This document shows positions 30,806 to 32,000 of a stretch of DNA of 32,000 nucleotides, in pieces. Source of the stretch: Acaryochloris marina MBIC11017. GTDB taxonomy: Bacteria; Cyanobacteriota; Cyanobacteriia; Thermosynechococcales; Thermosynechococcaceae. The notes beneath the pieces are model-generated. The model was not told the DNA's origin, searched no databases, and worked only from the letters and a program-made list of their open reading frames with translations. Where the stretch lies: NCBI RefSeq assembly GCF_000018105.1, contig NC_009925.1, positions 5,460,001-5,492,000 on the forward strand, written 5' to 3'. Position 1 is the first letter of the stretch; the number at the start of each line of letters is the position of its first letter. The position numbers and the translations under genes were made by a program.

Positions 30806-32000
30806 TTAAAGCTCTTTAAGACAGAGGTTAATACGATCTTTTATCAAATAGTCAGAATTAGGATCTCCAAAAATTTGGCTTCCAAGTGTTTTTCTATTTA
30901 AAGCATTACATTGTTTAGAGACTGAACTATCTGGATCATCTTCGAGCCATACACAACCTTCTTCATTCCATAATTTCTCTATTTCTTTAATTAATCTACA
31001 TGGTATTAATGAAATTTCAAGTGTATTTTCTAATCGTCCATTATTATTTAGATCAGCACCTATACCAATATTTTTATATAGAATAATATATGTTTTTTTA
31101 AGTGCCCCTTCTGTATATTGATTTTCTTCATCAGAGAATTCTGCATTTATTTTAACTTCACCATATTTTTTGTTTTTTAAATCTTTTTTGATTGCTTTAA
31201 TCCGATTTTGTATAACTAATTTGGCTAACTTGTTATCGGAATATTTTGCTAGTGATACGAGTTGACGCTTTTCATTGTTATCTATTTTAAGTGAATTCGG
31301 TAGTTGATTCTGTTTGTAATCAAGTAGTTTCCATATTTCACTGTCATTTTGGATTTTATCAAGTAAAGTTGTAACCGTAGAGATACGAACTCTTCGATAA
31401 TATGCCATTGCAATATTCAATTTACCATCTTCTTCATGTTGATTGGCTTGCTCAATTGTAGTTGTGAGCACTTCCAGTTGCACTGGAGTTTCATTACCTA
31501 ATACCCAAGAATGAATAATACTTAATTTGAGTTGATAAGAATTCCATAATGCAAAACTAATAATAAAAATTAATGAAGCTAATGAAACACCAATTGCAAT
31601 GATTTTATTGCGGTAGACTTTTTTTTCTTGTTGAATTTCTCGCAGTTTACGTTCAACTGCTTCCTTCTTTATTTGATTTTGTTTCTGTTGACTTAACTTT
31701 ATATACTCTTTCCCTACTTTTGAAATGATCTCTAAGTCATTATATTTTTCTATGAAATTTTCTGCTTCAATTAATTTATTTCCTTGAAGTAGCCAAGATA
31801 TATCTTTTTTTCTTCCTCCACTTTTCCATTCCATTGCAGAATATTCAATTTTTCTTGCAATCTTAATAGCATCTCTATGATCATTTATCCATATTTGAAG
31901 CCTAAACCAATATCGTATAAGTGCTTCATGAACAATATTAAGAACAACATTATCTTTTGTTTTATATGAGTCTTTTTCTAGAATAGTATCCGATACTATA
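30806..32000 (-). CDS. C-terminal part of a STAND-type NTPase-like protein with TM helix and 4-Cys C-terminal domain (5' end outside window)
   Basis: The frame is open from the window edge: IVSDTILEKDSYKTKDNVVLNIVHEALIRYWFRLQIWINDHRDAIKIARKIEYSAMEWKSGGRKKDISWLLQGNKLIEAENF. The track Met at 31834 is therefore internal. HEALIxxWxxLxxW followed by W..GR....LL.G..L..AE.. is the signature that follows the NTPase module in many NACHT/STAND proteins. After it come a Lys/Glu-rich coiled region, a TM helix (IIAIGVSLASLIFIISFALW, ~31544-31603) and a ~245-aa domain with four Cys. Confidence 0.75.
   Translation of the reverse strand, partial: IVSDTILEKDSYKTKDNVVLNIVHEALIRYWFRLQIWINDHRDAIKIARKIEYSAMEWKSGGRKKDISWLLQGNKLIEAENFIEKYNDLEIISKVGKEYIKLSQQKQNQIKKEAVERKLREIQQEKKVYRNKIIAIGVSLASLIFIISFALWNSYQLKLSIIHSWVLGNETPVQLEVLTTTIEQANQHEEDGKLNIAMAYYRRVRISTVTTLLDKIQNDSEIWKLLDYKQNQLPNSLKIDNNEKRQLVSLAKYSDNKLAKLVIQNRIKAIKKDLKNKKYGEVKINAEFSDEENQYTEGALKKTYIILYKNIGIGADLNNNGRLENTLEISLIPCRLIKEIEKLWNEEGCVWLEDDPDSSVSKQCNALNRKTLGSQIFGDPNSDYLIKDRINLCLKEL

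What the first reader, a model, noticed from the sequence alone, without database searches (positions are those of the whole stretch)
30806..32000. STAND-type NTPase whose usual repeat sensor is replaced by a TM helix and a Cys-containing outer domain
The open frame at the window edge reads ...VVLNIVHEALIRYWFRLQIWINDHRD...MEWKSGGRKKDISWLLQGNKLIEAENFIEKYNDL. This HEALIxxW / W..GR..LL.G..L..AE pair normally sits between the NTPase/winged-helix module and WD40/TPR sensor repeats in bacterial NACHT/STAND proteins. Here it is followed by a charged coiled segment and a basic patch (KKVYRNK). Next come one TM helix and ~245 aa with four Cys (IPCRL, EEGCVW, SKQCNAL, INLCLKEL). By the positive-inside rule the NTPase would be cytoplasmic and the Cys domain extracytoplasmic. 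That would make it a transmembrane STAND sensor, which is an uncommon architecture.
Basis: partly seen in the sequence, partly recalled or inferred. Interest (0 to 1): 0.75.

Follow-up and report, generated by a model that had tools for sequence, protein, structure and literature searches.

The report
Membrane-spanning caspase–STAND switch, new outer domain
The open frame at the window edge is the tail of an Acaryochloris marina caspase–nSTAND1 "death-switch" protein that crosses the membrane once and ends in an undescribed disulfide-stapled helical domain, always encoded next to a secreted partner protein; the membrane-spanning layout itself is normal for this protein family.

Summary
A minus-strand frame (stop at 30806-30808, open to 32000) encodes the last 397 aa of a 1013-aa protein. 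It is identical to Acaryochloris marina AM1_5434. Its layout is orthocaspase (5-229), nSTAND1 NTPase (256-681), charged coil, one TM helix (749-768) and a 245-aa C-terminal domain.

- **Outer domain.** It defines a real family of 184 clusters, and all named members are cyanobacterial. It has four near-invariant Cys, an EF-hand-like DxNxDG…E loop and a confident all-alpha model (pLDDT 92). It has no match in Pfam, NCBIfam, PADLOC, PDB or BFVD.
- **Topology.** The TM helix and the positive-inside bias are conserved (N-flank K+R above C-flank in 96 of 105 members). This supports the domain lying outside the cytoplasm.
- **Partner gene.** A signal-peptide, Cys-rich partner gene lies directly downstream in 9 of 9 loci. 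It co-varies with the outer domain, not with the NTPase.
The TM helix is not unusual. All 7 sampled nSTAND1 proteins with WD40, pentapeptide, FGE or unassigned C-termini have one at the same place. Transmembrane orthocaspases with outside sensors are already discussed in the literature.

Verdict: a new variant of a known kind. It is a new sensor-domain-plus-partner module on a known conflict/cell-death NTPase, carried here on a low-GC island. Interest is moderate.

The parts
30806..32000 (-). 3' part (397 codons plus stop) of the caspase–nSTAND1–TM–outer-domain gene (A. marina AM1_5434 / WP_012165630.1). The 5' 616 codons lie beyond the window end.
   Evidence: Translation. 100% identity to P0002 residues 617-1013. 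Source locus L010. Names and accessions.
31805..31948 (-). C-terminal end of the nSTAND1 domain, including HEALIRYW (fragment residues 18-65).
   Evidence: Pfam PF20703, profile positions 331-378 of 379, E 8.4e-10, 39.3 bits against a 27.1-bit cut-off.
31604..31804 (-). Linker: the W..GR..LL.G..L..AE motif, a charged helical (coiled) segment and the basic patch KKVYRNK (fragment residues 66-132).
   Evidence: Read directly from the sequence. The same linker occurs in other nSTAND1 proteins.
31544..31603 (-). Single transmembrane helix IIAIGVSLASLIFIISFALW (P0002 749-768).
   Evidence: It is the only segment of the 1013-aa protein with a KD 19-mer above 1.6; the peak is 2.67. It is conserved in 105 of 118 family members, with a positive-inside bias.
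30809..31534 (-). Undescribed extracytoplasmic all-alpha domain (fragment residues 156-397, P0002 772-1013).
   Evidence: 184 cluster representatives in an exhaustive search. AF2 model with pLDDT 92.1 and pTM 0.90, 11 helices. No Pfam, NCBIfam, PADLOC or PHROG hit. No PDB or BFVD fold or sequence match.
31016..31054 (-). EF-hand-like loop D-L-N-N-N-G-R-L-E-N-T-L-E, between two helices.
   Evidence: Family counts: position 1 D 150/150; position 3 N/D 142/150; position 5 D/N/S 141/150; position 6 G 137/150; position 8 L/I/V 147/150; position 13 E 144/150. It lies in the coil 154-170 between H144-153 and H171-175 of the model.
30821..31000 (-). Stretch holding the four conserved Cys codons (30998-31000, 30953-30955, 30908-30910, 30821-30823).
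   Evidence: Cys in 143/150, 147/149, 140/143 and 127/128 aligned rows. The co-loss pattern points to pairs Cys1–Cys4 and Cys2–Cys3.
30766..30802 (-). Perfect 18-bp inverted repeat (RNA hairpin) 3 nt after the stop codon, followed by a U-rich tract.
   Evidence: Found by the repeat finder as I8. RNA fold -26.7 kcal/mol, z = -6.7.
29368..30696 (-). Partner gene (442 aa, AM1_5433): N-terminal signal or anchor segment, 8 Cys, predicted mostly beta.
   Evidence: A homologue lies directly downstream of the STAND gene in 9 of 9 loci. It co-varies with the outer domain. No family hit.
28749..29135 (-). 128-aa accessory gene with a conserved C-terminal CPxGD…RCPTHGELI motif.
   Evidence: 43% identical orthologue at the same position in L016. 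A gene of the same size sits at that position in L020.
27815..28738 (-). 307-aa membrane-protein gene (AM1_5431), the last gene of the cassette.
   Evidence: 42% identical orthologue at the same position in L016. A 303-aa gene sits there in L020. Hydrophobic segments at 58-76 and 219-237.
27530..32000 (.). In-window part of a ~6.65-kb low-GC (~30% against ~45%) island that holds exactly the four genes.
   Evidence: GC profiles. The independent 6653-bp Logan contig L011 equals L010 9666-16318.
26841..27620 (.). One copy of a 780-bp direct repeat that brackets the island. The other copy lies beyond the window end, upstream of the STAND gene.
   Evidence: blastn 97.6% over 780 bp, L010 8982-9761 against 16228-17007. 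Partial copies occur on Acaryochloris plasmids.

Best explanation
The frame is the C-terminal 40% of a single-pass membrane protein of the nSTAND1 clade of STAND (NLR-like) NTPases.

Shown: the architecture is orthocaspase, nSTAND1, coiled linker, TM helix and a new 245-aa all-alpha domain. The domain is a cyanobacterial family almost always fused to nSTAND1, behind swappable death-type effectors (caspase, CHAT, TIR, trypsin, or none). A gene for a signal-peptide, Cys-rich protein always follows.

Inferred: the caspase and NTPase face the cytoplasm. The C-terminal domain lies outside it, in the periplasm or the thylakoid lumen. It is stapled by two disulfides (Cys1–Cys4 and Cys2–Cys3) and probably binds Ca2+ in its DxNxDG…E loop.

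Proposed mechanism: the outer domain docks the co-encoded secreted partner, and the pair forms the input module. An event outside the cytoplasm changes this complex. Candidates are a phage or other invader component, envelope damage, or a signal from neighbouring cells. The change passes through the TM helix and coiled linker and releases NTP-dependent oligomerisation of nSTAND1. That brings the orthocaspase domains together and activates them. The outcome is proteolysis with growth arrest or cell suicide. The 128-aa and 307-aa membrane proteins of the cassette are accessory; they may be a substrate or a second effector.
For: - **Identity and architecture.**: Pfam C14 at E 2e-16, nSTAND1 at E 8e-114, intact catalytic dyad and Walker motifs.
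- **Family.** 184 clusters have E<=1e-3. 81 of 82 long members carry nSTAND1, with C14 in 16, CHAT in 10, TIR in 9 and trypsin in 5. All named members are cyanobacterial.
- **Topology.** The TM helix is present in 105 of 118 members. K+R averages 5.0 on the N flank and 2.0 on the C flank, with N above C in 96 of 105. P0002 has only one TM segment. The four Cys are near-invariant. Six sequences lose Cys1 and Cys4 together, and one loses Cys2 and Cys3 together. The EF-hand-like loop is conserved.
- **Fold.** The AF2 model is confident, with pLDDT 92.
- **Partner.** A homologous gene with a hydrophobic N-terminus and 8-12 Cys in the long forms lies immediately downstream in 9 of 9 loci. In several it overlaps the STAND stop codon.
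- **Co-variation.** Mantel tests on 8 loci give rho 0.45 (p 0.009) for outer domain against partner. nSTAND1 against partner gives 0.09 (p 0.33), and nSTAND1 against outer domain gives -0.07.
- **Conflict-system context.** The effectors are swappable, including a trans-encoded CHAT in L017. Here the cassette sits on a low-GC island bracketed by repeats.
- **Established knowledge.** STAND NTPases switch by nucleotide-dependent oligomerisation, and the effector is activated by proximity (Avs and bacterial NACHT literature, summarised). nSTAND1 is defined in conflict systems in PMC8195603.
Against: - There is no experimental data.
- Topology rests on hydropathy and charge bias only. DeepTMHMM, SignalP and reporter fusions were not available.
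- Model coordinates could not be read, so the disulfide geometry was not checked.
- The Glu of the loop sits at position 13 rather than the canonical 12, and no EF-hand profile matches.
- The outer domain is fairly conserved in its C-terminal half and is not hypervariable. That suits docking of a constant partner better than direct recognition of diverse invaders.
- Co-variation of the outer domain and partner could reflect simple physical linkage of adjacent DNA.
- The partner structure could not be modelled (pLDDT 37). No complex prediction was possible.
- No PADLOC defence model matches beyond a generic caspase model.
Confidence: 0.6

Rival explanations
1. Guard or inhibitor model. The topology and parts are the same, but the secreted partner is not a co-receptor. 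It is a constitutive inhibitor or guarded bait. While bound to the outer domain it keeps the STAND off. Its degradation, modification or displacement by an invader or by envelope damage triggers the caspase.
For: The gene linkage is strict, 9 of 9 loci, often with overlapping stop and start codons that imply stoichiometric co-expression. The partner is the most divergent component (mean pairwise identity 29%, against 36% for the outer domain and 41% for nSTAND1) and carries a variable Cys-rich insert. The docking half of the outer domain is conserved.
Against: Nothing separates this model from the co-receptor model in sequence data. In A. marina the two genes are separated by 109 bp and a strong hairpin. 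That would allow unequal expression.
Confidence: 0.2
2. Not an anti-invader system. The protein is a developmental or stress 'extrinsic programmed cell death' or envelope/Ca2+-sensing receptor. The outer domain would read extracellular Ca2+, redox state or a signal from kin cells.
For: The EF-hand-like loop and the paired Cys could act as Ca2+ or redox sensors. The literature proposes extrinsic PCD for TM orthocaspases (PMC7475262). The domain is conserved rather than hypervariable.
Against: The N-terminal effectors are swappable (caspase, CHAT, TIR, trypsin). The cassette sits on plasmids and on a low-GC island flanked by repeats. It is patchy and often multi-copy. These are hallmarks of conflict systems rather than core physiology. 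Named members include unicellular genera such as Acaryochloris and Gloeothece.
Confidence: 0.12
3. The hydrophobic helix does not span the membrane, or it spans it the other way. The C-terminal domain would be cytoplasmic and its Cys would bind a metal, making it an intracellular sensor like those of Avs or bNACHT proteins.
For: Most characterised bacterial STAND sensors are cytoplasmic. WD40 and pentapeptide repeats are not typical exported folds, yet they follow the same helix in relatives. That raises doubt about export in the clade as a whole.
Against: The segment is 20 residues long, strongly hydrophobic (KD 2.67) and conserved. The charge bias is clear, with N above C in 96 of 105 members. 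The Cys spacing (15, 15, 29) and the pairwise co-loss fit disulfides, not CxxC metal sites. The obligatory neighbour has an N-terminal signal or anchor segment.
Confidence: 0.05
4. Decaying cargo of a horizontally acquired island with no current function.
For: Low-GC island with flanking repeats. A relative, P0001, looks N-terminally truncated.
Against: All four ORFs are intact. The protein is identical in two A. marina strains. All catalytic and family-invariant residues are retained.
Confidence: 0.03

Closest known systems
nSTAND1-clade STAND NTPases of bacterial conflict systems (Kaur, Iyer, Burroughs, Aravind, eLife 2021, PMC8195603; Pfam PF20703)
   Same: It has the same NTPase domain (E 8e-114) and the same N-terminal effector repertoire (caspase, CHAT, TIR, trypsin, or a trans-encoded effector). 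It has the same HEALIxxW…W..GR..LL.G..L..AE linker, basic patch and single TM helix. RefSeq already names this protein 'nSTAND1 domain-containing NTPase'.
   Different: The position after the TM helix is not held by WD40, TPR, pentapeptide or FGE/CLec. It is held by an unannotated 245-aa all-alpha, four-Cys domain with an EF-hand-like loop. That domain comes with an obligatory secreted partner gene.
Transmembrane cyanobacterial orthocaspases with AAA_16/NACHT and a predicted extracellular WD40 domain (Bhattacharjee & Mishra, J Exp Bot 2020, PMC7475262)
   Same: The topology is the same: a cytoplasmic p20 caspase domain and NTPase, one TM helix and an outside C-terminal domain. The proposed logic is also the same, with an outside signal activating the caspase ('extrinsic PCD').
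   Different: The outer domain is different. That review does not describe the partner gene, and AM1_5434 is not singled out (no paper in the library cites it).
DGR-diversified STAND/NACHT–CLec sensors, including one target with predicted periplasmic NACHT and CLec domains (Doré et al., PNAS 2024, PMC10907252)
   Same: A STAND NTPase is paired with a C-terminal sensor domain, some copies of which are predicted to lie in the periplasm. They are interpreted as antigen sensors of conflict systems in multicellular bacteria.
   Different: Those sensors are C-type-lectin/FGE folds that a retroelement hypermutates. Here the fold is different, no DGR is nearby, and the domain is conserved rather than hypervariable.
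Avs and bacterial NACHT antiviral STANDs
   Same: They share the tripartite effector–NTPase–sensor logic, and probably activation by oligomerisation.
   Different: Those are cytoplasmic proteins that bind phage proteins directly. No PADLOC Avs or bNACHT model matches here. The sensor here is extracytoplasmic and has a partner.
Animal Toll-like and death receptors (analogy only)
   Same: A single-pass receptor has an outside ligand-binding domain and an inside death or TIR effector. Nine family members carry TIR.
   Different: There is no homology in the outer domain. An NTPase switch is interposed. The resemblance is functional only.

Membership tests
nSTAND1 (Pfam PF20703) STAND NTPase | Profile match above the curated gathering score | tested here: met
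   The window fragment scores 39.3 bits against a 27.1-bit cut-off. Full-length P0002 scores 381.6 bits, E 8e-114, over residues 256-681.
nSTAND1 (Pfam PF20703) STAND NTPase | P-loop Walker A and Walker B motifs | tested here: met
   GPSGCGKS at 297 and DQFEE at 391 in P0002. These lie outside the window, in the identical full-length protein and in locus L010.
nSTAND1 (Pfam PF20703) STAND NTPase | Tripartite effector–NTPase–C-terminal module organisation, with effector swapping among relatives | tested here: met
   Among 82 long family members: C14 in 16, CHAT in 10, TIR in 9, trypsin in 5, none in the rest.
Orthocaspase / Peptidase_C14 | p20 domain profile match and a His-Cys catalytic dyad | tested here: met
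   PF00656 at E 2e-16 over residues 5-229. SGHG at 93 and DCCYSG at 144. These lie outside the window.
WD40/TPR-sensor STAND (UniProt names the protein 'WD-40 repeat protein') | WD40 or TPR repeats C-terminal to the NTPase | tested here: not met
   There is no WD40 or TPR Pfam hit in P0002 or in the fragment. The model is all-alpha with no repeat match.
Single-pass type-II-like membrane protein (N-in, C-out) | One hydrophobic helix of about 20 aa with positive charge on the cytoplasmic flank | tested here: met
   P0002 has one segment with a KD 19-mer of 2.67. In P0002 K+R is 6 on the N flank and 1 on the C flank. Family means are 5.0 and 2.0. Only simple criteria were used; no dedicated predictor or experiment.
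Disulfide-bonded extracytoplasmic domain | An even number of conserved Cys, lost in pairs, with SG–SG distances of about 2 Å | tested here: inconclusive
   Conservation and pairwise co-loss are met.
EF-hand / DxDxDG Ca2+-binding loop | Helix-loop-helix with D1, D/N3, D/N/S5, G6, hydrophobic 8 and E12 | tested here: inconclusive
   Positions 1, 3, 5, 6 and 8 are conserved, and the loop lies between helices. The acidic bidentate residue is at position 13, and no EF-hand Pfam hit was found.
Catalogued anti-phage defence systems (PADLOC-DB 2.0) | Match to a system-specific model (Avs, bNACHT and others) | tested here: not met
   Only a generic 'caspase' model (E 2e-11) and two marginal P-loop hits were found. 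There was nothing for the outer domain or the three neighbours.

The most novel reading that the evidence does not exclude
The outer domain and its secreted partner form a dedicated extracytoplasmic receptor pair. Through it, a bacterial NLR-like NTPase would detect events outside the cytoplasm, such as phage adsorption or tail penetration, envelope attack, or signals from neighbouring cells, before anything enters the cell. It would then fire a caspase, TIR or CHAT effector inside. This would be a prokaryotic counterpart of Toll or death-receptor signalling, built on a fold with no solved relative.
Probability: 0.3. Interest if true: 0.8.

Novelty: new variant of a known kind. Interest (0 to 1): 0.5.

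Why it matters
Characterised bacterial STAND/NLR-like immune proteins sense phage proteins in the cytoplasm. If nSTAND1 proteins really place their sensor modules outside the membrane, they are a large, untested class of trans-envelope pattern or danger receptors. They are wired to caspase, TIR and CHAT effectors.

This family is a good entry point for testing that idea. Its outer domain is compact and confidently modelled. It has clear mutable features (two disulfides and a Ca2+-type loop). It also comes with a single obligatory partner protein that can be tested for binding.

In practical terms the work defines a new domain family of at least 184 clusters with no Pfam model, and a conserved two-gene module. 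It also corrects the 'WD-40 repeat protein' annotation of AM1_5434.

Tried and rejected
- **Word-indexed protein search.** It was nearly blind here. It found one hit for the fragment and one for the 26-sequence domain profile, and it missed even the identical protein. The exhaustive HMMER search was needed.
- **GTDB genome scan with the domain alignment.** It gave only a spurious Phycisphaerae hit that shares the IGADLNNNG loop inside an unrelated transglutaminase-like protein. This was rejected as a homologue.
- **Metagenome scan.** It gave only two loci, though L009 was valuable.
- **Family libraries.** PADLOC, PHROGs, NCBIfam and Pfam found nothing for the outer domain or for the 442-, 128- and 307-aa neighbours.
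- **Structure comparisons.** Foldseek against PDB and BFVD, and a profile search against PDB sequences, gave no significant match. The best result was E 0.3-0.8 with TM-score at or below 0.28, and only weak TPR or 14-3-3-like noise.
- **Partner structure.** The second, with a 5-row alignment, gave an unusable model (pLDDT 37.5), so no fold search was run on it.
- **IS hypothesis for the flanking repeat.** I considered that the 780-bp repeat is an insertion sequence. Its ORF pieces have no Pfam hit, so I only call it a dispersed repeat.
- **128-aa protein as a zinc ribbon.** I considered this and rejected it. Each 'knuckle' has a single Cys (CPxG…RCPTHG), so it is only a Cys/His motif.
- **P0011 lookup.** The contig lookup failed; the protein is not on record.
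Full report
**1. The observation**

On the minus strand, the frame window:30806-31999 reads through 397 codons to a stop at 30806-30808. The other two frames are closed. The ORF lister shows only the internal-Met version (30806-31834, 342 aa) because the real gene runs off the window.

Residues 18-65 match the last 48 positions of Pfam nSTAND1 above the curated threshold (E 8.4e-10).

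**2. The full-length gene**

An exhaustive profile search with the C-terminal domain returned a 1013-aa protein, P0002. Its residues 617-1013 are identical to the window fragment. It is Acaryochloris marina AM1_5434, also ABW30390.1, WP_012165630.1 and BDM79209.1.

Its locus in strain MBIC10699 (AP026075.1, locus L010) differs from the window at 6 of 11,195 overlapping bases.

Pfam assigns Peptidase_C14 to residues 5-229 (E 2e-16) and nSTAND1 to residues 256-681 (E 8e-114). The following motifs are present:
- caspase dyad: SGHG at 93 and DCCYSG at 144;
- Walker A: GPSGCGKS at 297;
- Walker B: DQFEE at 391.

There is an upstream P-loop, and the frame does not close. No WD40 is present, so the UniProt name 'WD-40 repeat protein' is wrong.

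**3. The C-terminal domain is a real, undescribed family**

The exhaustive search found 184 cluster representatives (clustered at 50% identity) with E<=1e-3, and 153 with E<=1e-10. Nearly all carry the domain at the C-terminus of 700-1300-aa proteins.

Of 82 long members, 81 carry nSTAND1. Their N-termini are caspase (16), CHAT (10), TIR (9), trypsin (5) or nothing recognisable. Every member with an organism name is cyanobacterial: Acaryochloris, Leptolyngbya, Phormidium, Snowella, Oscillatoria and Gloeothece.

No Pfam, NCBIfam, PADLOC or PHROG model covers the domain. No paper in the library cites the protein.

An AF2 model built from a 26-sequence alignment is confident (pLDDT 92.1, pTM 0.90) and all-alpha, with 11 helices. 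Foldseek against PDB and BFVD, and a profile search of PDB sequences, found nothing significant.

The conserved features are as follows:
- Four Cys are present in 143/150, 147/149, 140/143 and 127/128 aligned rows.
- There is an invariant Asp, a Pro-Cys pair and a Trp.
- A helix-loop-helix carries D-x-N/D-x-D/N/S-G-x-L/I-…-E. It matches the EF-hand/DxDxDG pattern at positions 1, 3, 5, 6 and 8, but the Glu is at position 13.

Six sequences lack Cys1 together with the Cys4 segment, and one lacks Cys2 and Cys3 together. This points to disulfides Cys1–Cys4 and Cys2–Cys3. That is inference; I could not read the model coordinates.

**4. Topology**

P0002 has one strongly hydrophobic segment, residues 749-768 (KD 2.67).

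Across the family, a helix with a KD 19-mer of at least 1.6 lies just upstream of the domain in 105 of 118 proteins that have enough upstream sequence. Most of the remainder are artefacts of the search window. K+R averages 5.0 in the 15 residues before the helix and 2.0 after it. The N flank exceeds the C flank in 96 of 105.

Together with the paired Cys and the Ca2+-type loop, this supports a cytoplasmic caspase and NTPase and an extracytoplasmic C-terminal domain. Whether the membrane is the plasma membrane or the thylakoid cannot be told from sequence.

**5. The TM helix is not the unusual part**

I sampled nSTAND1 proteins that lack this domain. They came from IMG/VR contigs (L023 CHAT–nSTAND1–WD40; L024 TIR–nSTAND1–FGE). 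They also came from plasmids of Nostoc, Acaryochloris, Microchaete, Streptomyces and Pseudonocardia, with WD40, pentapeptide or unassigned C-termini.

All 7 have exactly one hydrophobic helix 85-140 residues after HEALIxxW, preceded by a basic patch.

The literature already proposes:
- TM orthocaspases with AAA_16/NACHT and an extracellular WD40, in an 'extrinsic PCD' model (PMC7475262);
- a NACHT–CLec DGR target whose NACHT and CLec domains are predicted to be periplasmic (PMC10907252).

So 'transmembrane STAND' is the norm for this clade. The sample is small.

**6. A conserved partner and a cassette**

The next gene downstream (29368-30696, 442 aa, AM1_5433) has a hydrophobic N-terminal signal or anchor segment and 8 Cys. 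It has no family assignment.

A homologue lies directly downstream of the STAND gene in all 9 loci examined:

| Locus | Partner length (aa) |
|---|---|
| window | 442 |
| L009 | 421 |
| L016 | 557 |
| L017 | 492 |
| L018 | 337 |
| L019 | 329 |
| L020 | 453 |
| L021 | 324 |
| L032 | 540 |

In several loci the partner overlaps the STAND stop codon. Two of the loci were reached by starting from the partner.

Pairwise identities across 8 loci show how the parts travel together (Mantel tests; identities):
- outer domain against partner: rho 0.45, p 0.009;
- nSTAND1 against partner: rho 0.09, p 0.33;
- nSTAND1 against outer domain: rho -0.07.

The outer domain and partner therefore behave as one module that has been shuffled relative to the NTPase and effector. 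Physical linkage of adjacent DNA contributes to this signal, so it is suggestive and not proof of binding.

The three closest loci (window, L016, L020) also share a ~125-aa protein with a CPxGD…RCPTHG motif and a ~305-aa membrane protein, 42-43% identical between the window and L016. Effector-less relatives have a CHAT protein in trans (L017).

**7. Genomic setting**

The window is about 45% GC with housekeeping genes, including CarB, DAHP synthase and a branched-chain permease. The last ~4.5 kb is about 30% GC.

In L010 the low-GC block is about 6.65 kb and holds exactly the four genes. It equals an independent 6653-bp assembly contig. It is bracketed by 780-bp direct repeats that are 97.6% identical. 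One copy is at window 26841-27620. Partial copies of the repeat occur on Acaryochloris plasmids. This indicates horizontal acquisition. Family members also sit on conjugative plasmids.

A perfect 18-bp hairpin follows the STAND stop codon (-26.7 kcal/mol, z -6.7).

**8. Mechanism**

Shown: the architecture, family, conserved residues and gene linkage.

Inferred: the outside location, the two disulfides and Ca2+ binding.

Proposed: the outer domain docks the secreted partner, and the pair is the input. A perturbation outside the cytoplasm is relayed through the TM helix and coiled linker. This permits NTP-driven oligomerisation of nSTAND1 and proximity activation of the orthocaspase, leading to proteolysis and growth arrest or death.

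The main rival keeps the same parts but treats the partner as an inhibitor or guarded bait. Other rivals are a physiological Ca2+, redox or PCD receptor, a cytoplasmic domain, or dead cargo.

**9. Verdict**

The claim that the architecture is uncommon does not. What is new is a cyanobacterial outer-domain family with no solved or annotated relative, its obligatory partner gene and their modular co-inheritance. That makes it a new variant of a known kind, with moderate interest (0.5).

Noticed in passing
window 27530-32000 (continues beyond the window; L010 9666-16318): The four-gene cassette sits on a ~6.65-kb island of about 30% GC in a chromosome region of about 45% GC. An independent short-read assembly yields the island as a separate 6653-bp contig.
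   Followed up: yes
window 26841-27620 (second copy at L010 8982-9761, outside the window): 780-bp direct repeats, 97.6% identical, bracket the island. They carry broken ORF pieces with a CPHC…CKVCC motif but have no Pfam hit. Copies at 84% identity over about 400 bp occur on Acaryochloris plasmids. This may be a remnant of a mobile element.
   Followed up: partly
window 30766-30802 (-): A perfect 18-bp-stem hairpin with a U-rich tail lies 3 nt after the STAND stop codon (-26.7 kcal/mol, z -6.7). The consensus terminator scan missed it because the stem is AT-rich. In other loci the partner gene overlaps the STAND stop codon instead.
   Followed up: partly
window 28749-29135 (-) and 27815-28738 (-): A 128-aa protein (CPxGD…RCPTHGELI motif) and a 307-aa membrane protein are conserved in order in the closest caspase-type cassettes. 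Their L016 orthologues are 42-43% identical, and same-sized genes occupy the same positions in L020. Neither has any family assignment. Their role is unknown.
   Followed up: partly
L017 5234-6328 and L009 7917-8435: In effector-less relatives, a separately encoded CHAT protease shares a ~120-aa C-terminal segment (35% identity) with a small ORF just upstream of another effector-less STAND. This looks like an adaptor domain for recruiting an effector in trans.
   Followed up: no
L023, L024, L027-L031: nSTAND1 proteins with WD40, pentapeptide, FGE or unassigned C-termini, from cyanobacteria, actinobacteria and IMG/VR contigs, all have one TM helix after the linker. That implies their repeat sensors may also lie outside the cytoplasm. 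A clade-wide census seems worthwhile.
   Followed up: partly
L007 9614-10390: An unrelated Phycisphaerae protein (weak transglutaminase-like hit) carries the identical IGADLNNNG loop. The motif recurs independently, as expected for a Ca2+-type loop.
   Followed up: no
window 21595-23631 (+): A 678-aa ORF has only marginal FAD-oxidoreductase or halogenase-like hits (E about 1e-3). It sits next to a class I methyltransferase (20242-21330, -) and is effectively unannotated.
   Followed up: no
database annotation of AM1_5434: UniProt calls the protein 'WD-40 repeat protein', although it has no WD40 repeats. RefSeq's 'nSTAND1 domain-containing NTPase / caspase family protein' is correct.
   Followed up: yes
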